64,000 nucleotides of DNA from Flectonema sp. DT1601 (taxonomy: Eukaryota): positions 806,001 to 870,000 of the forward strand of contig OZ025804.1 of assembly GCA_964019425.1 (NCBI GenBank). Direction: 5' to 3'. Below the pieces are notes generated by a model. That model was not told the origin of the DNA. It saw only the letters and a program-made list of their open reading frames with translations, and did not search any database. Position 1 is the first letter of the stretch; every line of letters starts with the position of its first letter. Positions 9,875-62,445 of the stretch are shown here, in pieces. A program made the position numbers and the translations under genes.

Positions 9875-12800
9875 ATGACTTCCTGGTCGGGGGTATTTCC
9901 CCATGAAATGCCAACCCGTCTACCAGAGCTTTATAACAGCAATAGGGGGTATAATGCTGTTCAATCAGTCAGTCCGAGTGTCGATATTGATGAAATGATT
10001 AGAATGATGAATCGAGAGGGAATCGAACTATGTGGAGCTAAGATGCTATCGGAAGCGGAAAATGTCTTGCTAAAAGCGTCGGAATTAGCAAAAGAAGTTA
10101 AAGATAAGCAACAACGACTAACTTTGATAAGCATAACTAATAACAATATAGGATACGTAATGAAGCTGAAGGGGTCATTGGATGCTGCAGCAGGCTATGT
10201 TGAATCTGCTTTGAAAATTGAATACCAATTAAATAAACCTTCAGCGTCAACGACCCTCAATCTAACTGCTGTTTTAAATGCTAAAGGTCTTTATAATAAG
10301 GCAAGAGACTTAGCTAAATTAACACTAGATCTACTCAATGAAGAGGAAGCCAATGGATCACCTGCATCAACTGAGTTGTGGGTCGCGGCATGGCATAACA
10401 TAGCAGTAGCACAGTTGCATGCGACTACTGGAGTTTTGAGTGCTGAAGTCGTGTGGAATCAGTTCGCGACAGGTCAGAAGATTGCTCTTAAAGGACTCGG
10501 TAAGAATCACCCTCTCACTAAGGCCATAACAGAATCATATAAATCAGCAAAAGCAAGTTGGTTGCGTACAAAACTTAATAAAGGAAAGCGACGAGAGGTA
10601 CCACAACAATCTAAAAACATCCCTCACAGATCCCCATCACTTCCTCGTAAGAAAAAGCTTGGCAACAGACCAATGTTCCCTTCAACAGTTCATTCACTAA
10701 ATCCTGAACCACCATCACGTCATAAAAATAATAAATCTCGTGCACCAAATCGACACCAACAACAGTCTCTTCAGAGTAGTTTAAATCCAACAGAAGCACT
10801 GCTAGAATACAGTGGCATTGATCCTTACAGCGGTATGCATGGTGGATGGGGTGCTGATGTTTCGGAAGCTTGGGTTCCTTCAACAAAAAAGAAATCTCCT
10901 GCTCCGCCAACTGTACCGCCGCCAGTGAAATCGCAGAGGAATGCGACTGTGAATGCAAAACCTCAACCGATTCAAAGACCGAAGAAGAATGAAATGAATG
11001 ATCATTCTGAGTTAGTTCAATTGAGAAAGAAGATTGAACACTTAGACACTCAACCACTACCTCCTTTGAGTGCACCTGTTGCTCAGGATATTGAAGCTCC
11101 TCAAGCTCCAAATGTACCTCGGCAAGCAGTGGCTCCAGAACCTGTTAACTTTACTGGTTTTGAAGACTGCAGTGGTATAGTTACTGTTCCTTCTTCATTG
11201 AATTGTGAATTAAGAAATGATGACTCTGCTTTGAGATTACTTGAAGAAGCTTCTCCATATGAAGGTACTCTCGGAGGTCTTTGGTTGTTAAAACAAGTCT
11301 GTGCCATGGACGAAGAAGAACCAGATTGTTCTTATATCGACTTGTTGATGGCTTCTCCGTCACATAGTCAAAACCGTCACAGTGATGAAGACATCGAAAA
11401 TGATGGTTTCCCTCGAACTACACAACAGCTCCTAAATTATTTACCTGACAGCAGTGAACATAGCGCTCTTAGATTTCTCGTTGACTGTGAAACAAATGAG
11501 GCGAATCAAATTCCTCGACGAAGACCAAATCAACTAAATAGCGTTATGTATTTATTAAACGCTGCTATGCTTGATGATGAGGACTATAACGGTCTGGCAA
11601 TGCTTACGAATTCTATAAGTGAAGTTGATTGTGGCATTCAATACTCTTCGTTCTTTAAGGATACTCAAAGTTCTAATACAGCCCAGTTGTTAGATATCCC
11701 TGGTCACAAGCTTGAGTATGTTACCTTTTTGTTTATTTTATTGAGGAGGGAGAATTCATTTTTTCCTTTCCCCCTTATTCACACCTCGTTCTGACTACTA
11801 TTTACAGAGTCACCGCAACTAGGCAAGGGAGTCGGTGCAGTCATCCTGACAAATCCCTAGTCAATGTGGTGTAGATTTCTTGTTTTGCCTCGCCTGAGTT
11901 GCTCTGTGAGTTGTTTTGTGGAAATATTGTTTAGAGTAAAGGTTCTGATCGAAGCCATGTTTGCTTTTTCCGACCCCATCTTAGCGGCAATCATGGTCAA
12001 TACGGTACCGAGATCTGAGTTGGCTTTCTAAACTTAGGCAAGTGAGTGAGTGTGTTGATTGTTACTTCTTGACAGACATCACCGCAACTAGGCAAGGGAG
12101 TCGGTGCAGTCATCCTGACAAATCCCTAGTCAATGTAGTGTAGATTTCTTGTTTTGCCTCAACTCGATAACTCGAACTGCTGTCATCTGCTGTTGCTGTC
12201 GCTCTCTCAGTGTTGTCTGTTTTTATTTCAGTGCCTTTAATATTTCATGATGATACAGAAATTACCAATAGATCTCGTTCGTATGAAAATATTTTTATTG
12301 ATTTCAAGTAATTTCGGCCTTCAAGCTGATCTTTGTGTTGCCATGTTCAGGAACACACTCTGTGAGGTTTACTGTGGAGAACATCTTTATTGATCACTAC
12401 AACTAGGCAAGGGAGTCGGTGCAGTCATCCTGACAAATCCCTAGTCAATGTGGTGTAGATTTCTTGTTTTGCCTCGCCTGAGTTGCTCTGTGAGTTGTTT
12501 TGTGGAAATATTGTTTAGAGTAAAGGTTCTGATCGAAGCCATGTTTGCTTTTTCCGACCCCATCTTAGCGGCAATCATGGTCAATACGGTACCGAGATCT
12601 GAGTTGGCTTTCTAAACTTAGGCAAGTGAGTGAGTGTGTTGATTGTTACTTCTTGACAGACATCACCGCAACTAGGCAAGGGAGTCGGTGCAGTCATCCT
12701 GACAAATCCCTAGTCAATGTGGTGTAGATTTCTTGTTTTGCCTCAACTCGATAACTCGAACTGCTGTCGTCTGCTGTTGCTGTCGCTCTCTCAGTGTTGT

Positions 12801-14478
12801 CTGTTTTTATTTCAGTGCCTTTAATATTTCATGATGATACAGAAATTACCAATAGATCTCGTTCGTATGAAAATATTTTTATTGATTTCAAGTAATTTCG
12901 GCCTTCAAGCTGATCTTTGTGTTGCCATGTTCAGGAACACACTCTGTGAGGTTCACTGTGGAGAACATCTTTATTGATCACTACAACTAGGCAAGGGAGT
13001 CGGTGCAGTCATCCTGACAAATCCCTAGTCAATGTGGTGTAGATTTCTTGTTTTGCCTCAACTCGATAACTCGAACTGCTGTCGTCTGCTGTTGCTGTCG
13101 CTCTCTCGGTGTTGTCTGTTTTTATTTCAGTGCCTTTAATATTTCATGATGATACAGAAATTACCAATAGATCTCGTTCGTATGAAAATATTTTTATTGA
13201 TTTCAAGTAATTTCGGCCTTCAAGCTGATCTTTGTGTTGCCATGTTCAGGAACACACTCTGTGAGGTTTACTGTGGAGAACATCTTTATTGATCACTACA
13301 ACTAGGCAAGGGAGTCGGTGCAGTCATCCTGACAAATCCCTAGTCAATGTGGTGTAGATTTCTTTTCGTGCCTCTCTGTATTTGAGGAAGAGAGTCACTA
13401 ACTCTGAAGTTCACTGTGGAGAACGTCTTTATTGATCACTACAACTAGGCAAGGGAGTCGGTGCAGTCATCCTGGCAAATCCCTAGTCAATGTGGTGTAG
13501 ATTTCTTGTTTTGCCTGAGTTGCTCTGTGAGTTGTTTTGTGGAAATATTGTTTGGAGTAAGGGTTCTGATCGAAGCCATGTTTGCTTTTTCCGACCCCAT
13601 CTTAGCGGCAATCATGGTCAATACGGTACCGAGATCTGAGTTGGCTTTCTAAACTTAGGCAAGTGAGTGAGTGTGTTGATTGTTACTTCTTGACAGACAT
13701 CACCGCAACTAGGCAAGGGAGTCGGTGCAGTCATCCTGACAAATCCCTAGTCAATGTGGTGTAGATTTCTTGTTTTGCCTCAACTCGATAACTCGAACTG
13801 CTGTCGTCTGCTGTTGCTGTCGCTCTCTCAGTGTCGTCTGTTTTTATTTCAGTGCCTTTAATATTTCATGATGATACAGAAATTACCAATAGATCTCGTT
13901 CGTATGAAAATATTTTTATTGATTTCAAGTAATTTCGGCCTTCAAGCTGATCTTTGTGTTGCCATGTTCAGGAACACACTCTGTGAGGTTTACTGTGGAG
14001 AACATCTTTATTGATCACTACAACTAGGCAAGGGAGTCGGTGCAGTCATCCTGACAAATCCCTAGTCAAATTAGTTTAGATTGGCATATTGCTCCCTGAT
14101 TCCGTGTACCAGAGCCTCGGTCTTTCCGGAACCCATTGCTGCCCACTTTTTGATATCTCTAGATGCAGATGGGTCGGACCTTCTGAGTTGCTACTTCGTC
14201 TTGTGCTGGAGGTACTGCTCCCCCTACTGGCCCTTGCTGAGTCGTAGTAGACCTCTTCTTCAGACCCTCTAATTCCTTCATGATACTTTGTATTACGGCT
14301 GTCTGTTGTTGCTGATCAACCTGCTCCGTCCGACGATCTCTTTTCCTTGAAATATTTACTTGATCGTATTGGGCTTTGAACTGCTTTCTTCGTTCTATGT
14401 GTTTATAACTTCAAATTAACGAAAAACTAAAACAGGGCTCTTCACTTAGTTTGCATGTCTTCAATACTTGAACCGTAA
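9875..14478 (+). CDS. TPR-containing protein; proposed exons 9875-11715 and 14436-14478 (intron hosts snoRNA array 1)
   Basis: TPR-like helices at N-terminus (ITNNNIGYVMKLKGSLDAAAGYVESAL). GTATGT donor at 11716; A-rich acceptor AACTAAAACAG ending 14435 gives in-frame ...KLEALHLVCMSSILEP*. An alternative acceptor at 11807 is possible. Confidence 0.6.
11811..11878 (+). ncRNA. Single-hairpin box AGA (H/ACA-like) RNA H1, representative copy
   Basis: Basal stem CACCGCA (or CACTACA)/TGTGGTG, internal loop, upper stem GGGA..GTC/GAC..TCCC, then T-AGA-TTT at the 3' end; about 68 nt. Confidence 0.72.
11941..12016 (+). ncRNA. Single-hairpin box AGA snoRNA H2, predicted pseudouridine guide for LSU peptidyl-transferase loop
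   Basis: Stem GGTTCTG/CGGTACC then G-AGA-TCT. Pocket strands ATCGAAG and TCAA are complementary to rRNA UUGA-(UC)-CUUCGAU; upper stem CCATG/CATGG. Confidence 0.85.
12242..12334 (+). ncRNA. Double-guide box C/D snoRNA, representative copy
   Basis: C box ATGATGA 12247-12253, D' ATGA preceded by ATCTCGTTCGT (antisense to SSU ACGAACGAGA), D box CTGA 12326-12329 preceded by TTCGGCCTTCAAG (antisense to LSU UUGAAGGCCGAA). Confidence 0.88.
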
Positions 14479-21477: not shown

Positions 21478-21575
21478 TACGAGATGTGTAGATGTATGTT
21501 TTCATTTATTTTAATAAAAGAAAACATTTCACTGACTCCATTCCAATCATTTTTTGTTTTTTCTTTTAAAGCTAA

Positions 21576-24500
21576 GGTTCTGATCGAAGCTATGTTTGCT
21601 TTTTCCGACCCCATCTTAGCGGCAATCATGGTCAATACAGTACCGAGATTTGAGTTGACTTTCTAAACTTAGGCAAGTGAGTGAGTGTGTTGATTGTTAC
21701 TTCTTGACAGACATCACCGCAACTAGGCAAGGGAGTCGGTGCAGTCATCCTGACAAATCCCTAGTCAATGTGGTGTAGATTTCTTGTTTTGCCTCAACTC
21801 GATAACTCGAACTGCTGTCATCTGCTGTTGCTGTCGCTCTCTCGGTGTTGTCTGTTTTTATTTCAGTGCCTTTAATATTTCATGATGATACAGAAATTAC
21901 CAATAGATCTCGTTCGTATGAAAATATTTTTATTGATTTCAAGTAATTTCGGCCTTCAAGCTGATCTTTGTGTTGCCATGTTCAGGAACACACTCTGTGA
22001 GGTTTACTGTGGAGAACATCTTTATTGATCACTACAACTAGGCAAGGGAGTCGGTGCAGTCATCCTGACAAATCCCTAGTCAATGTGGTGTAGATTTCTT
22101 GTTTTGCCTCGCCTGAGTTGCTCTGTGAGTTGTTTTGTGGAAATATTGTTTGGAGTAAAGGTTCTGATCGAAGCCATGTTTGCTTATTCCGACCCCATCT
22201 TAGCGGCAATCATGGTCAATACAGTACCGAGATTTGAGTTGACTTTCTAAACTTAGGCAAGTGAGTGAGTGTGTTGATTGTTACTTCTTGACAGACATCA
22301 CCGCAACTAGGCAAGGGAGTCGGTGCAGTCATCCTGACAAATCCCTAGTCAATGTGGTGTAGATTTCTTGTTTTGCCTCAACTCGATAACTCGAACTGCT
22401 GTCGTCTGCTGTTGCTGTCGCTCTCTCAGTGTTGTCTGTTTTTATTTCAGTGCCTTTAATATTTCATGATGATACAGAAATTACCAATAGATCTCGTTCG
22501 TATGAAAATATTTTTATTGATTTCAAGTAATTTCGGCCTTCAAGCTGATCTTTGTGTTGCCATGTTCAGGAACACACTCTGTGAGGTTTACTGTGGAGAA
22601 CATCTTTATTGATCACTACAACTAGGCAAGGGAGTCGGTGCAGTCATCCTGACAAATCCCTAGTCAATGTGGTGTAGATTTCTTTTCGTGCCTCTCTGTA
22701 TTTGAGGAAGAGAGTCACTAACTCTGAAGTTCACTGTGGAGAACGTCTTTATTGATCACTACAACTAGGCAAGGGAGTCGGTGCAGTCATCCTGGCAAAT
22801 CCCTAGTCAATGTGGTGTAGATTTCTTTTCGTGCCTCTCTGTATTTGAGGAAGAGAGTCACTTACTCTGAAGTTCACTGTGGAGAACGTCTTTATTGATC
22901 ACTACAACTAGGCAAGGGAGTCGGTGCAGTCATCCTGGCAAATCCCTAGTCAATGTGGTGTAGATTTCTTGTTTTGCCTCAACTTGATAACTCGAACTGC
23001 TGTCGTCTGCTGTTGCTGTCGCTCTCTCGGTGTTGTCTGTTTTTATTTCAGTGCCTTTAATATTTCATGATGATACAGAAATTACCAATAGATCTCGTTC
23101 GTATGAAAATATTTTTATTGATTTCAAGTAATTTCGGCCTTCAAGCTGATCTTTGTGTTGCCATGTTCAGGAACACACTCTGTGAGGTTTACTGTGGAGA
23201 ACATCTTTATTGATCACTACAACTAGGCAAGGGAGTCGGTGCAGTCATCCTGGCAAATCCCTAGTCAATGTGGTGTAGATTTCTTGTTTTGCCTCAACTC
23301 GATAACTCGAACTGCTGTCATCTGCTGTTGCTGTCGCTCTCTCGGTGTTGTCTGTTTTTATTTCAGTGCCTTTAATATTTCATGATGATACAGAAATTAC
23401 CAATAGATCTCGTTCGTATGAAAATATTTTTATTGATTTCAAGTAATTTCGGCCTTCAAGCTGATCTTTGTGTTGCCATGTTCAGGAACACACTCTGTGA
23501 GGTTTACTGTGGAGAACATCTTTATTGATCACTACAACTAGGCAAGGGAGTCGGTGCAGTCATCCTGGCAAATCCCTAGTCAATGTGGTGTAGATTTCTT
23601 GTTTTGCCTCAACTCGATAACTCGAACTGCTGTCATCTGCTGTTGCTGTCGCTCTCTCGGTGTTGTCTGTTTTTATTTCAGTGCCTTTAATATTTCATGA
23701 TGATACAGAAATTACCAATAGATCTCGTTCGTATGAAAATATTTTTATTGATTTCAAGTAATTTCGGCCTTCAAGCTGATCTTTGTGTTGCCATGTTCAG
23801 GAACACACTCTGTGAGGTTTACTGTGGAGAACATCTTTATTGATCACTACAACTAGGCAAGGGAGTCGGTGCAGTCATCCTGGCAAATCCCTAGTCAATG
23901 TGGTGTAGATTTCTTGTTTTGCCTCAACTCGATAACTCGAACTGCTGTCATCTGCTGTTGCTGTCGCTCTCTCGGTGTTGTCTGTTTTTATTTCAGTGCC
24001 TTTAATATTTCATGATGATACAGAAATTACCAATAGATCTCGTTCGTATGAAAATATTTTTATTGATTTCAAGTAATTTCGGCCTTCAAGCTGATCTTTG
24101 TGTTGCCATGTTCAGGAACACACTCTGTGAGGTTTACTGTGGAGAACATCTTTATTGATCACTACAACTAGGCAAGGGAGTCGGTGCAGTCATCCTGGCA
24201 AATCCCTAGTCAATGTGGTGTAGATTTCTTTTCGTGCCTCTCTGTATTTGAGGAAGAGTCACTTACTCTGAAGTTTGCTGTGGAGAACGTCTTTATTGAT
24301 CACTACAACTAGGCAAGGGAGTCGGTGCAGTCATCCTGACAAATCCCTAGTCAATGTGGTGTAGATTTCTTTTCGTGCCTCTCTGTATTTGAGGAAGAGA
24401 GTCACTTACTCTGAAGTTCACTGTGGAGAACGTCATTATTGATCACTACAACTAGGCAAGGGAGTCGGTGCAGTCATCCTGACAAATCCCTAGTCAATGT

Positions 24501-26523
24501 GGTGTAGATTTCTTGTTTTGCCTCAACTTGATAACTCGAACTGCTGTCGTCTGCTGTTGCTGTCGCTCTCTCAGTGTTGTCTGTTTTTATTTCAGTGCCT
24601 TTAATATTTCATGATGATACAGAAATTACCAATAGATCTCGTTCGTATGAAAATCTTTTTATTGATTTCAAGTAATTTCGGCCTTCAAGCTGATCTTTGT
24701 GTTGCCATGTTCAGGAACACACTCTGTGAGGTTTACTGTGGAGAACATCTTTATTGATCACTACAACTAGGCAAGGGAGTCGGTGCAGTCATCCTGACAA
24801 ATCCCTAGTCAATGTGGTGTAGATTTCTTTTCGTGCCTCTCTGTATTTGAGGAAGAGAGTCACTAACTCTGAAGTTCACTGTGGAGAACGTCTTTATTGA
24901 TCACTACAACTAGGCAAGGGAGTCGGTGCAGTCATCCTGGCAAATCCCTAGTCAATGTGGTGTAGATTTCTTTTCGTGCCTCTCTGTATTTGAGGAAGAG
25001 AGTCACTTACTCTGAAGTTCATTGTGGAGAACGTCTTTATTGATCACTACAACTAGGCAAGGGAGTCGGTGCAGTCATCCTGGCAAATCCCTAGTCAATG
25101 TGGTGTAGATTTCTTTTCGTGCCTCTCTGTATTTGAGGAAGAGAGTCACTAACTCTGAAGTTCACTGTGGAGAACGTCTTTATTGATCACTACAACTAGG
25201 CAAGGGAGTCGGTGCAGTCATCCTGGCAAATCCCTAGTCAATGTGGTGTAGATTTCTTTTCGTGCCTCTCTGTATTTGAGGAAGAGAGTCACTAACTCTG
25301 AAGTTCACTGTGGAGAACGTCTTTATTGATCACTACAACTAGGCAAGGGAGTCGGTGCAGTCATCCTGGCAAATCCCTAGTCAATGTGGTGTAGATTTCT
25401 TTTCGTGCCTCTCTGTATTTGAGGAAGAGAGTCACTTACTCTGAAGTTCATTGTGGAGAACGTCTTTATTGATCACTACAACTAGGCAAGGGAGTCGGTG
25501 CAGTCATCCTGACAAATCCCTAGTCAATGTGGTGTAGATTTCTTGTTTTGCCTCGCCTGAGTTGCTCTGTGAGTTGTTTTGTGGAAATATTATTTGGAGT
25601 AAAGGTTCTGATCGAAGCCATGTTTGCTTATTCCGACCCCATCTTAGCGGCAATCATGGTCAATACGGTACCGAGATCTGAGTTGACTTTCTAAACTTAG
25701 GCAAGTGAGTGAGTGTGTTGATTGTTACTTCTTGACAGACATCACCGCAACTAGGCAAGGGAGTCGGTGCAGTCATCCTGACAAATCCCTAGTCAATGTG
25801 GTGTAGATTTCTTGTTTTGCCTCAACTCGATAACTCGAACTGCTGTCGTCTGCTGTTGCTGTCGCTCTCTCAGTGTTGTCTGTTTTTATTTCAGTGCCTT
25901 TAATATTTCATGATGATACAGAAATTACCAATAGATCTCGTTCGTATGAAAATCTTTTTATTGATTTCAAGTAATTTCGGCCTTCAAGCTGATCTTTGTG
26001 TTGCTATGTTCAGGAACACACTCTGTGAGGTTTACTGTGGAGATCGTCTTTATTGATCACTACAACTAGGCAAGGGAGTCGGTGCAGTCATCCTGACAAA
26101 TCCCTAGTCAATGTGGTGTAGATTTCTTGTTTTGCCTGAGTTGCTCTGTGAGTTGTCTTGTGGAAATATTGTTTGGAGTAAGGGTTCTGATCGAAGCTAT
26201 GTTTGCTTTTTCCGACCCCATCTTAGCGGCAATCATGGTCAATACGGTACCGAGAATTGAGTTGACTTTCTAAACTTAGGCAAGTGAGTGAGTGTGTTGA
26301 TTGTTACTTCTTGACAGACATCACCGCAACTAGGCAAGGGAGTCGGTGCAGTCATCCTGGCAAATCCCTAGTCAATGTGGTGTAGATTACCCGTGTTAGT
26401 TTCAGCCCTAAAAAAATCTTTGTTAGTTTTTTTAAATTAAGACTTAAGGTTCTGATCGAAGCCATGTTTGCCTTTTCCGACCCCATCTTAGCGGCAATCA
26501 TGGTCAATACAGTACCGAGATAA
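21576..26523 (+). ncRNA. snoRNA cluster/array 2: 21 copies H1, 5 copies H2, 8 copies box C/D RNA
   Basis: Same modules as array 1 in a different order. H2 starts 21576, 22160, 25604, 26183, 26448; C boxes at 21882, 22466, 23067, 23382, 23697, 24012, 24611, 25910; H1 from 21715 to 26322. Confidence 0.85.
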
Positions 26524-28567: not shown

Positions 28568-29790
<1,223 letters not shown>

Positions 29791-59553: not shown

Positions 59554-62445
59554 ATGAATTCGATTAGAGGAATCCACAGAAAATTAATATCCAACGAAAC
59601 ATACTGCTTCATAGTAGGAAGAGATTATGATACTTTTGCTCTCCGAAGAACTAAGACACATTCAAAACAAAGGATTAGTAAAGGTGATGACGAAGCCCGC
59701 ATTGGATTCGAAGTTGGTACTCTCATGGGAGGTCTGATGGGTGTTGGTGTTATATTTTATTTTATTGACTCAGCAAGTGCTGCTAGAGCAAGACTAACAG
59801 GACAAGGAGCATCCTATGGTCAGATCATTTGGCCTAACCTCGTTGATACACTAAAAGACAGTATAGGAGATGACGAAGAGACAAGACAACGACTCCAATC
59901 GGTGAAATTCACAAACGAGAAACTCGCCTTTGCATGTCTAATGGCCTTCAGCATGTTTAGATCAAGCCGAGTATATTGGAATCGCAGATGGGGAGACATA
60001 GAGTGGCAACGTTCTGTTATATACATGCCTTGGTATTCATGTGTTGGTTTAGCATTATACGTACCTGCTGCAGCCTCTGGTCTTCCAAGCATAGCAGCGT
60101 ATGCCTACAGTAATAGAGAATACGCATCTGAGTATCTACCTCTTCTTCTTAGTCCAAAAGAATTACTTTCTCGGTCATTAGATTCAGTAAAGGTATTGTT
60201 TTTTTTTTTTTTTTTAAATTATCTAGAATTCTTATTCTAGAATCTTGTTCTGATTCAGTTCTTGAGAAGAGCCTGCTGTCGCACTCAAAAGGGAGGTCTA
60301 TAACACATCTGACTTGTCTTGTACTCTCAGATGACACCTACTTGCCCAAGACATTCACATTAGTGTACGTTACTGACTGCCTGATTCAGTTCTTTGGAAG
60401 AGCCTGCTGTCACACTCAAAAGGGAGGTCTATAACACATCTGACTTGTCTTGTACTCTCAGATGACACCTACTTGCCCAAGACATTCACATTATTGTACG
60501 TTACTGACTGCCTGATTCAGTTCTTTGGAAGAGCCTGCTGTCACACCCAAAAGGGAGGTCTATAACACATCTGACTTGTCTTGTACTCTCAGATGACACC
60601 TACTTGCCCAAGACATTCACATTAGTGTACGTTACTGACTGCCTGATTCGGTTCTTTGGAAGAGCCTACTGTCACACTCGAAAGGGAGGTCTATAACACA
60701 TCTGACTTGTCTTGTACTCTCAGATGACACCTACTTGCCCAAGACATTCGCATTATTGTACGTTACTGACTGCCTGATTCAGTTCTTTGGAAGAGCCTGC
60801 TGTCACACTCAAAAGGGAGGTCTATAACACATCTGACTTGTCTTGTACTCTCAGATGACACCTACTTGCCCAAGACATTCGCATTATTGTACGTTACTGA
60901 CTGCCTGATTCAGTTCTTTGGAAGAGCCTACTGTCACACTCAAAAGGGAGGTCTATAACACATCTGACTTGTCTTGTACTCTCAGATGACACCTACTTGC
61001 CCAAGACATTCACATTATTGTACGTTACTGACTGCCTGATTCAGTTCTTTGGAAGAGCCTACTGTCACACCCAAAAGGGAGGTCTATAACACATCTGACT
61101 TGTCTTGTACTCTCAGATGACACCTACTTGCCCAAGACATTCACATTATTGTACGTTACTGACTGCCTGATTCAGTTCTTTGGAAGAGCCTACTGTCACA
61201 CTCGAAAGGGAGGTCTATAACACATCTGACTTGTCTTGTACTCTCAGATGACACCTACTTGCCCAAGACATTCACATTATTGTACGTTACTGACTGCCTG
61301 ATTCAGTTCTTTGGAAGAGCCTACTGTCACACCCAAAAGGGAGGTCTATAACACATCTGACTTGTCTTGTACTCTCAGATGACACCTACTTGCCCAAGAC
61401 ATTCACATTAGTGTACGTTACTGACTGCCTGATTCAGTTCTTTGGAAGAGCCTACTGTCACACTCGAAAGGGAGGTCTATAACACATCTGACTTGTCTTG
61501 TACTCTCAGATGACACCTACTTGCCCGAGACATTCGCATTATTGTACGTTACTGACTGCCTGATTCAGTTCTTTGGAAGAGCCTACTGTCACACTCGAAA
61601 GGGAGGTCTATAACACATCTGACTTGTCTTGTACTCTCAGATGACACCTACTTGCCCAAGACATTCGCATTATTGTACGTTACTGACTGCCTGATTCAGT
61701 TCTTTGGAAGAGCCTACTGTCACACTCGAAAGGGAGGTCTATAACACATCTGACTTGTCTTGTACTCTCAGATGACACCTACTTGCCCAAGACATTCACA
61801 TTAGTGTACGTTACTGACTGCCTGATTCAGTTCTTTGGAAGAGCCTACTGTCACACTCGAAAGGGAGGTCTATAACACATCTGACTTGTCTTGTACTCTC
61901 AGATGACACCTACTTGCCCAAGACATTCACATTATTGTACGTTACTGACTGCCTGATTCAGTTCTTTGGAAGAGCCTACTGTCACACCCAAAAGGGAGGT
62001 CTATAACACATCTGACTTGTCTTGTACTCTCAGATGACACCTACTTGCCCAAGACATTCACATTAGTGTACGTTACTGACTGCCTGATTCAGTTCTTTGG
62101 AAGAGCCTACTGTCACACTCGAAAGGGAGGTCTATAACACATCTGACTTGTCTTGTACTCTCAGATGACACCTACTTGCCCGAGACATTCATACTAGTGT
62201 ACGTTACTGACTGCCTTGTTGTTGCCGGTTCTTTGTTCTAATTCAAGTCTTTAATATGTTTAACTTCACCGCCTAGTACTATTTAGTTTAAAATAAGACA
62301 CAAAAAAAAAAAAAAAAAAATACAGCATGCCTTTCTGACGTGGATGTTAAGTGTATTTGCTATTAGTTATGCATTGTTGCCTGTTATGGTGTTGGGCTCT
62401 AGAACTTCTATGTGGTGGGCAGCAAGAAGAGCTTCTGGGATATGA
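59554..62445 (+). CDS. Multi-pass membrane protein; exons 59554-60192, 62326-62445 (intron hosts array 3)
   Basis: Donor AAG|GTATTG at 60193, acceptor TACAG ending 62325; phase 0 join gives DSVK-HAFLTWMLSVFAISYALLP...GI*. Confidence 0.72.
60250..62215 (+). ncRNA. Array 3: 15 x 131-bp tandem repeat, each with a candidate single-hairpin box AGA RNA (H3, first copy about 60291-60354)
   Basis: GGGAGGT/ACTT(G)CCC basal stem, pocket, CATCTGA/TCAGATG upper stem, AGA 15 nt from the upper-stem base. The tandem repeat is certain; the RNA call is inferred. Confidence 0.7.

What the first reader, a model, noticed from the sequence alone, without database searches (positions are those of the whole stretch)
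11941..12016. H2: single-hairpin AGA RNA predicted to pseudouridylate the peptidyl-transferase loop
Seen: the pocket strands ATCGAAG and TCAA can clamp 5'-UUGA-UC-CUUCGAU-3', leaving the UC unpaired 14 nt from the AGA box. Copies vary CGGTACC/CAGTACC (U-G versus U-A, pairing kept). Known (from memory): this is the conserved LSU GAUCCUUCGAUGUCGG segment, and the U matches yeast 25S Psi2865, guided by snR46. Terminal copies (21576, 26448) lose homology within a few nt of the hairpin start, and the 26448 copy loses it just after AGA, marking the RNA ends.
Basis: partly seen in the sequence, partly recalled or inferred. Interest (0 to 1): 0.75.

Follow-up and report, generated by a model that had tools for sequence, protein, structure and literature searches.

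The report
Diplonemid ribosomal pseudouridine guide RNA
Eight tandem copies of a 76-base hairpin in a diplonemid protist likely encode a small guide RNA predicted to convert one uridine beside the ribosome's catalytic centre into pseudouridine; it is an expected kind of gene, likely the counterpart of a known trypanosome guide.

Summary
H2 (11941-12016) occurs in 8 copies in two tandem arrays, with a second AGA hairpin (30 copies) and a C/D-box RNA (12 copies). The host is a diplonemid (SerRS tree, 100/98). The pockets pair 4+7 bases around one large-subunit uridine, 14 nt from AGA. In Trypanosoma brucei this uridine (LSU-beta 1318) is 100% pseudouridine by mass spectrometry and is assigned to TB11Cs5H3. 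Its spacing to neighbouring modifications matches yeast Psi2865 (snR46). The published TB11Cs5H3 has the same layout by eye: same pocket register, same three outer stem pairs, compensated inner pairs. H2 is therefore a likely orthologue. The neighbouring hairpin resembles TB11Cs5H1, which also follows H3 in T. brucei, so the linkage may be ancient. Limits: the species' own rRNA, expression and modification were not tested; the fold alone is no better than shuffles for this copy; stem I has a U-U mismatch; Rfam gives no hit. Splice-site-like signals lie 3-6 nt upstream of most hairpins (post hoc lead). Verdict: new member of a known kind; my searches found no diplonemid guide in print.

The parts
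11941..12016 (+). H2 guide RNA, copy 1 (predicted 5' end 1-3 nt upstream of 11941; predicted 3' end 12016)
11941..11947 (+). stem I, 5' strand (6 pairs and one U-U mismatch with 12003-12009)
11948..11954 (+). 5' pocket strand; pairs 7 bp with the rRNA 3' of the target U
11955..11996 (+). stem II (5 perfect pairs, U-U, 5 pairs) and 20-nt apical loop
11997..12002 (+). 3' pocket strand; first 4 nt pair with the rRNA 5' of the target U
12003..12009 (+). stem I, 3' strand (G/A variant at 12004-equivalent)
12011..12013 (+). AGA box, invariant in 8 of 8 copies
12525..12600 (+). H2 copy 2 (identical to copy 1)
13562..13637 (+). H2 copy 3 (identical; G instead of A just upstream)
21576..21651 (+). H2 copy 4, first element of array 2, unique 5' flank
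22160..22235 (+). H2 copy 5
25604..25679 (+). H2 copy 6
26183..26258 (+). H2 copy 7 (G just upstream; weakest fold)
26448..26523 (+). H2 copy 8, last element of array 2, unique flanks on both sides, best fold
12080..12147 (+). H1, second single-hairpin AGA RNA (30 copies); follows 7 of 7 non-terminal H2 copies; resembles T. brucei TB11Cs5H1 by eye
12243..12333 (+). C/D-box RNA candidate (C box 12247-12253, D box 12326-12329), 12 copies
11811..14081 (+). array 1: 9 H1 (last one with altered 3' stem), 3 H2, 4 C/D
21576..26523 (+). array 2: 21 H1, 5 H2, 8 C/D; starts about 100 nt after the inferred stop of a Na/Ca exchanger gene
11906..11934 (+). donor-like GTGAGT to AG, ending 6 nt upstream of H2 copy 1 (untested splice-like signal)
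12042..12075 (+). donor-like GTGAGT to CAG between H2 and H1, ending 4 nt upstream of H1 (untested)
21494..21571 (+). GTATGT ... CTGAC ... AG, intron-like, ending 4 nt upstream of H2 copy 4 (untested)
11716..11807 (+). GTATGT ... CTGAC ... CAG, likely last intron of the upstream gene, ending 3 nt upstream of the first H1

Best explanation
H2 is an eight-copy hairpin in a diplonemid tandem cluster that likely encodes a single-hairpin AGA-box guide RNA, predicted to direct pseudouridine at the large-subunit uridine equivalent to T. brucei LSU-beta 1318 and yeast 25S 2865, and is likely orthologous to T. brucei TB11Cs5H3. Shown: the copies, the hairpin layout, the 4+7 bp complementarity to the T. 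brucei and L004 rRNA segment, the 14-nt ruler. Inferred from established H/ACA biology: co-transcription in a polycistronic + strand precursor, release as a 76-79 nt RNA ending 3 nt after AGA, binding by Cbf5, Nop10, Nhp2 and Gar1, clamping of pre-rRNA with UC left unpaired, and isomerisation of that U. Inferred: the arrays grew by recent unequal exchange between near-identical copies.
For: Target U is measured pseudouridine at 100% in T. brucei with guide TB11Cs5H3 and maps to yeast Psi2865 by modification spacing. TB11Cs5H3 sequence (compared by eye) shares the A before stem I, 7-position stem I with the same three outer pairs (GGU/ACC), the pocket hexamer UCGAAG and tetramer UCAA in the same register, a 2-nt linker, 1-nt gap, AGA and a 14-nt ruler; three of the four inner stem I pairs differ on both sides and still pair. 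One single bipartite site in 1,103 nt of L004; 2 of 20,000 shuffled pockets reach 11 bp in its 420-nt core. Pockets and AGA invariant in 8 of 8 copies, 3 of 3 stem changes keep pairing. Cluster with a boxed C/D RNA and a second AGA hairpin, repeated at two places, as described for trypanosomes. Host is a diplonemid. Constrained folds -13.0 to -18.5 kcal/mol.
Against: The species' rRNA was not available (no genome; diplonemid rDNA supplement held no sequence). No expression data. Fold z-score not significant for 2 of 3 copies tested on the + strand. Stem I has a U-U mismatch, whereas trypanosomatid stem I is usually perfect. Two of 8 copies have G just upstream of stem I, never seen in 100 trypanosomatid guides. 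Copy 26183 folds differently without constraints. No Rfam hit at E up to 10. Four non-H2 sites among 2,790 AGA sites pass the same model with 11 bp or more. The 3' 20 nt match the T. brucei RNA at only 12-14 of 20, a level reached at 47 places in the window at 13 or more, H2 copies included, so common descent rests on layout, not on identity score. Variation inside H2 (4 of 73 sites) is not clearly below that of shared flanks (4 of 40 upstream, 3 of 60 downstream).
Confidence: 0.88

Rival explanations
1. H2 descends from a guide RNA but these copies, or some of them, are unexpressed or unstable passengers of a repeat expansion, and another locus supplies the modification.
For: U-U mismatch in stem I; G upstream of stem I in 2 of 8 copies; alternative fold of copy 26183; no clear drop in variation inside the RNA among recent copies; repeat-bounded, untranscribed tandem copies are reported in D. 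papillatum.
Against: Pockets and AGA intact in 8 of 8; copies with unrelated flanks (21576, 26448) keep the whole hairpin; all stem changes keep pairing.
Confidence: 0.05
2. H2 is an expressed hairpin RNA with another job: a Cbf5-independent 'AGA-like' RNA, a pre-rRNA folding chaperone, or a guide for another target in RNAs I could not scan.
For: Trypanosomes have AGA-like RNAs that are not destabilised by CBF5 knockdown and single hairpins with several targets. Only 1.1 kb of one LSU fragment was scanned by script.
Against: Perfect 11-bp fit at the canonical 14-nt distance to a site known to be modified, and the same register as TB11Cs5H3.
Confidence: 0.04
3. The hairpin and the rRNA match are chance features inside a tandem repeat.
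For: Fold energy at shuffle level for copy 11941; model scans give false hits (4 in this window; over a million crude candidates per trypanosomatid genome); a 26-base pattern from H2 hit a bacterial gene by chance in metagenomes.
Against: The match falls on a measured pseudouridine; the T. brucei guide for that site has the same layout; homology breaks coincide with the expected RNA ends; neighbours are a C/D RNA and a second AGA hairpin.
Confidence: 0.03

Closest known systems
T. brucei TB11Cs5H3 (Myslyuk et al. 2008, PMC2613932; sequence in supplement of PMC3273796; target in supplement of PMC10662448)
   Same: Single hairpin, AGA box, same target uridine, same pocket motifs and register, same outer stem I pairs, 14-nt ruler, followed directly by a similar-looking AGA hairpin (TB11Cs5H1 / window H1).
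   Different: 71 nt and one copy in T. brucei versus 76 nt and 8 copies here; 5' pocket 6 versus 7 nt; perfect versus mismatched stem I; upper stem and loop not alike by eye; the window's C/D RNA shows no likeness by eye to TB11Cs5C1 or C2; no counterpart of TB11Cs5H2 seen in the arrays.
Trypanosomatid H/ACA-like and Euglena AGA-box single-hairpin guide RNAs (class)
   Same: Size, one hairpin, AGA, pocket geometry, mixed and repeated clusters with C/D RNAs.
   Different: Host is a diplonemid, with an unfragmented 28S rRNA and many cis-introns; arrays are mosaics of up to 34 RNA genes; splice-like signals sit just upstream of the hairpins. Euglena guide sequences were not seen, so no Euglena comparison was made.
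Saccharomyces cerevisiae snR46
   Same: Guides the equivalent site, 25S Psi2865; its loss causes sparsomycin hypersensitivity, more nonsense suppression and tighter aa-tRNA binding.
   Different: Two-hairpin RNA with H and ACA boxes (recalled); functional analogue only, no sequence comparison made.

Membership tests
Euglenozoan single-hairpin AGA (H/ACA-like) guide RNAs | One hairpin of 57-91 nt | tested here: met
   76 nt from stem I to AGA+3; single hairpin in 8 of 8 constrained folds and 7 of 8 free folds (range)
Euglenozoan single-hairpin AGA (H/ACA-like) guide RNAs | AGA box 1-3 nt after stem I | tested here: met
   AGA in 8 of 8, 1 nt after stem I
Euglenozoan single-hairpin AGA (H/ACA-like) guide RNAs | 3' end 3 nt after AGA | not testable with these tools
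   No RNA run listed; homology of copy 26448 ends 1 nt after AGA, which is compatible only
Euglenozoan single-hairpin AGA (H/ACA-like) guide RNAs | Stem I of 5-8 bp, usually perfect; A usually just upstream | tested here: inconclusive
   6 pairs with one U-U mismatch; A upstream in 6 of 8, G in 2 of 8; imperfect stem I exists in TB8C4H1
Euglenozoan single-hairpin AGA (H/ACA-like) guide RNAs | Perfect stem II of 3-7 bp above the pocket; loop of 5 nt or more; energy below -5 kcal/mol | tested here: met
   5 bp, 20-nt loop, -13.0 to -18.5 kcal/mol
Euglenozoan single-hairpin AGA (H/ACA-like) guide RNAs | Bipartite target pairing of 3-9 bp per side, target U 13-16 nt from AGA | tested here: met
   4+7 bp, 14 nt, against T. 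brucei LSU-beta and L004; stand-in rRNAs, not the species' own
Euglenozoan single-hairpin AGA (H/ACA-like) guide RNAs | Pairing with the host species' own rRNA and modification of that U | not testable with these tools
   No genome held; no diplonemid rRNA sequence obtained
Euglenozoan single-hairpin AGA (H/ACA-like) guide RNAs | Genes in repeated clusters mixed with C/D RNAs | tested here: met
   Two arrays with 30 H1, 8 H2, 12 C/D
Euglenozoan single-hairpin AGA (H/ACA-like) guide RNAs | Destabilised by Cbf5 depletion (separates H/ACA-like from AGA-like) | not testable with these tools
   Definition; needs an experiment
Any Rfam 15 family (trypanosomatid snoRNA models are recalled to be among them) | Covariance-model match | tested here: not met
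   No gathering hit in the window; only unrelated chance hits at E up to 10. Not filed under an Rfam family
TB11Cs5H3 orthologous group | Same target, same pocket register and sequence likeness beyond what the target forces | tested here: inconclusive
   Target and register the same; 12-14 of 20 identities at the 3' end, 7 of them forced by target and box; rest compared by eye
Canonical two-hairpin H/ACA RNAs (snR46 type) | Two hairpins with a hinge H box and a terminal ACA | tested here: not met
   One hairpin ending in AGA; copy 26448 stands alone between unrelated flanks

The most novel reading that the evidence does not exclude
H2 and H1 are the diplonemid orthologues of TB11Cs5H3 and TB11Cs5H1, kept side by side in the same order since diplonemids and kinetoplastids split, and diplonemids release these guides by splicing: an acceptor 3-6 nt upstream of each hairpin (cis, or spliced-leader trans) cuts the polycistronic array into single pre-RNAs. 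The linkage alone I put near 0.5; the splicing route is the unlikely half.
Probability: 0.15. Interest if true: 0.6.

Novelty: new member of a known kind. Interest (0 to 1): 0.3.

Why it matters
It fills the missing branch: single-hairpin AGA guides are described from kinetoplastids and Euglena, and my searches (main text of the D. papillatum genome paper) found none from diplonemids. It indicates that the minimal guide design does not depend on a fragmented 28S rRNA, and that a helix 89 pseudouridine with a fidelity phenotype in yeast is probably made by a guide shared with trypanosomes. It gives a seed for finding diplonemid snoRNAs that Rfam misses. None of this changes the known mechanism.

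Tried and rejected
Whole genome: none held. Sequencing runs: no RNA holder listed, so no reads were laid; this is no evidence on expression. Rfam: window at gathering score, 0 hits; three short stretches at E up to 10 gave only unrelated chance hits. Metagenome pattern scan for H2 relatives: 1 hit, inside a 148-aa bacterial-looking reading frame, no hairpin homology, rejected as chance; the pair count on that alignment is uninformative. Viral-contig scan for the target motif: 3 hits, 2 not rRNA, 1 a eukaryote LSU fragment (L004) used as stand-in. Euglena modification table could not be read. Diplonemid rDNA supplements held none of five motifs. 'TB11Cs5H3' is in no main text of the library. 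Earlier findings by place, words and sequence: nothing on this locus. Minus-strand reading of H2: fold z +0.43, and cluster boxes are on the + strand. The first spliced translations were off by one base and were redone. H1 as guide for the TB11Cs5H1 site: pockets fit by eye but lie 11 nt from AGA, outside 13-16, so its target is left open.

Full report
Observation. It folds as one hairpin: stem I of six pairs with a U-U mismatch, an open pocket, stem II of five perfect pairs plus five more, a 20-nt loop, and AGA one base after stem I. There are 8 copies in two arrays, 11811-14081 and 21576-26523, interleaved with a second AGA hairpin (H1, 30 copies) and a C/D-box RNA candidate (12 copies). Of positions 1-73, four vary: three in stems, all keeping a pair, and one in the loop. 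Pockets and AGA never vary; the three bases after AGA do. Copies 21576 and 26448 have unrelated 5' flanks, and 26448 stops matching one base after AGA.

Chance. Folding energy does not single H2 out: z -0.53 for 11941, -0.73 for 21576, -2.38 for 26448 (3 of 8 copies tested). The pair-keeping changes are all transitions, of which 18 of 32 possible would keep a pair (p about 0.18 for 3 of 3). Variation inside H2 (4 of 73) is not clearly below that in shared flanks (4 of 40, 3 of 60). Against 1,103 nt of a eukaryote LSU fragment (L004) the pockets have a single bipartite site, 4+7 bp, and 2 of 20,000 shuffled pockets reach 11 bp in its 420-nt core. A scan of all 2,790 AGA sites with a Psiscan-like model gave the 8 H2 copies and 4 other sites at 11 bp or more. 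So model and pairing are suggestive; the case rests on which site is hit and on the known guide for it.

Host. Seryl-tRNA synthetase (54008 onward) groups with Lacrimia lanifica, Diplonema ambulator and three unnamed records at 100/98, apart from euglenids and kinetoplastids (22 of 120 listed hits, first 300 residues). Broken reading frames show GTATG-type donors, the commonest donor in three diplonemids (PMC12621601, passages). No genome and no RNA run were available.

Target. T. brucei LSU-beta 1314-1326 carries the predicted segment exactly; U1318 is pseudouridine at 100% in both stages by mass spectrometry and is assigned to TB11Cs5H3 (PMC10662448, supplement file 5, parts 1, 3, 32, 33). 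An earlier study lists that RNA as 3.1-fold up in the bloodstream form with a Psi ratio of 1.4 (PMC4855143, supplement rows and results section). Yeast has Psi2865 (snR46), m5C2870 and Psi2880 (PMC5699541, passages); T. brucei has Psi1318, m5C1323 and Psi1333, the same +5 and +15 spacing, which fixes the equivalence without the yeast sequence. Loss of snR46 gives sparsomycin hypersensitivity, more nonsense suppression and tighter aa-tRNA binding (PMC1766470, passages). That the site closes helix 89 beside the central loop is recalled.

Relation to TB11Cs5H3. The T. brucei locus is printed in the supplement of PMC3273796 (rows seen; 71 nt, one copy, 44 and 186 reads). By eye it shares with H2 the A before stem I, a 7-position stem I with the same three outer pairs, the pocket motifs UCGAAG and UCAA in the same register, a 2-nt linker, a 1-nt gap, AGA and the 14-nt ruler. 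Of the four inner stem I pairs, three differ on both sides and still pair; one is the U-U mismatch. The upper stem and loop are unlike, as reported even among trypanosomatid orthologues (PMC2613932, passages and section 26). Against orthology: the 3' 20 nt match at 12-14 of 20, seven of them forced by target and box, and 47 window positions reach 13 or more; Rfam finds nothing. I therefore call it a likely orthologue and do not file it under an Rfam family.

Neighbours. In T. brucei the order is C1-H1-H2-C2-H3-H1-H2. Window H1 resembles TB11Cs5H1 at both ends by eye and follows 7 of 7 non-terminal H2 copies at 63 nt, as TB11Cs5H1 follows H3 at about 70 nt. This suggests an old linkage, but H1 was compared by eye with this one cluster only, has no Rfam hit, and would hold the TB11Cs5H1 target 11 nt from AGA, outside the 13-16 rule.

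How it likely works. Shown: layout and complementarity. Inferred from trypanosome work and from polycistronic, spliced-leader-processed transcription in D. papillatum (PMC10161547, passages): the arrays are co-transcribed with upstream + strand genes, cut into single RNAs, bound by the Cbf5 complex (protein partners recalled), and clamp pre-28S rRNA so that the unpaired U is isomerised. Array 2 starts about 100 nt after the inferred stop of a Na/Ca exchanger gene; array 1 starts at the likely last intron acceptor of a 639-aa frame without Pfam hit. In 5 of 6 distinct 5' contexts of H1 and H2 an AG ends 3-6 nt before stem I (background 0.20), and in 4 a GTATGT or GTGAGT donor lies 29-92 nt upstream with no RNA gene between (background 0.056; nominal p 0.002 and 0.0001). 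The window and motifs were chosen after seeing the data, the commonest H1 context (23 of 30 copies) and the C/D RNA lack the signal, and several internal H2 copies have GAG rather than YAG there. It is a lead only; H2 could equally sit inside an intron from 11906 to 12075.

Novelty. Single-hairpin AGA guides in repeated mixed clusters are known from trypanosomatids and Euglena. Four library searches (listings and abstracts only) and the main text of the D. papillatum genome paper (0 occurrences of snoRNA) showed no diplonemid example; the library lacks most subscription papers, and that paper's supplements and the Euglena table (PMC7672448, passages seen, supplement unreadable) may bear on this. 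Diplonemid 28S is unfragmented (PMC9082867, abstract and passages). Verdict: real, ordinary in mechanism, a new member of a known kind with a named likely orthologue. Interest 0.3.

Noticed in passing
window 12080-12147 and 29 further copies: H1, a second single-hairpin AGA RNA, resembles T. brucei TB11Cs5H1 at both ends but is shorter around stem I; its target is unclear (the TB11Cs5H1 site would be 11 nt from AGA). The last copy of array 1 (14016-14081) has lost its 3' stem strand.
   Followed up: partly
window 12243-12333 and 11 further copies: C/D-box RNA candidate with C, D' and D boxes; the element before the D' box is antisense to a conserved rRNA motif (8-nt match at the cut start of L004; a small-subunit site is recalled as an alternative). 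No Rfam hit.
   Followed up: partly
window 11716-11874: If the intron 11716-11807 is spliced, the last coding exon of the 639-aa upstream frame runs through the first H1 copy and stops at its TAG, so one H1 copy would overlap coding sequence.
   Followed up: partly
window 11807, 11934, 12075, 21571, 26441: AG acceptor-like sites 3-6 nt upstream of the hairpins, four with a donor-like hexamer upstream and two with a CTGAC branch-like motif; both arrays begin right after such a site.
   Followed up: partly
window 11811-14081 and 21576-26523: The arrays are mosaics of 143-, 269- and 315-nt modules joined at H1 copies, as if H1 is the recombination anchor; assembly of such arrays could not be checked against reads.
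   Followed up: partly
window about 14160-14430, minus strand: An open, protein-like reading frame of about 85 codons on the minus strand ends just right of array 1, against the + strand direction of most genes here.
   Followed up: no
window 28680-29250: About 190 perfect CAA repeats, apparently inside an intron ahead of a prefoldin-like exon (label by eye, not from a call).
   Followed up: no
window 60119-62252: Tandem array with a 131-nt period, 95-98% identical units, beginning at the end of a reading frame.
   Followed up: no
window 39330-40526: 75-nt (25-residue) coding repeats of leucine-rich-repeat type inside the 1147-aa frame 38961-42404 (label by eye).
   Followed up: no
L004 1-1103: A eukaryote large-subunit rRNA fragment held in the viral contig collection; organism not identified.
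   Followed up: partly
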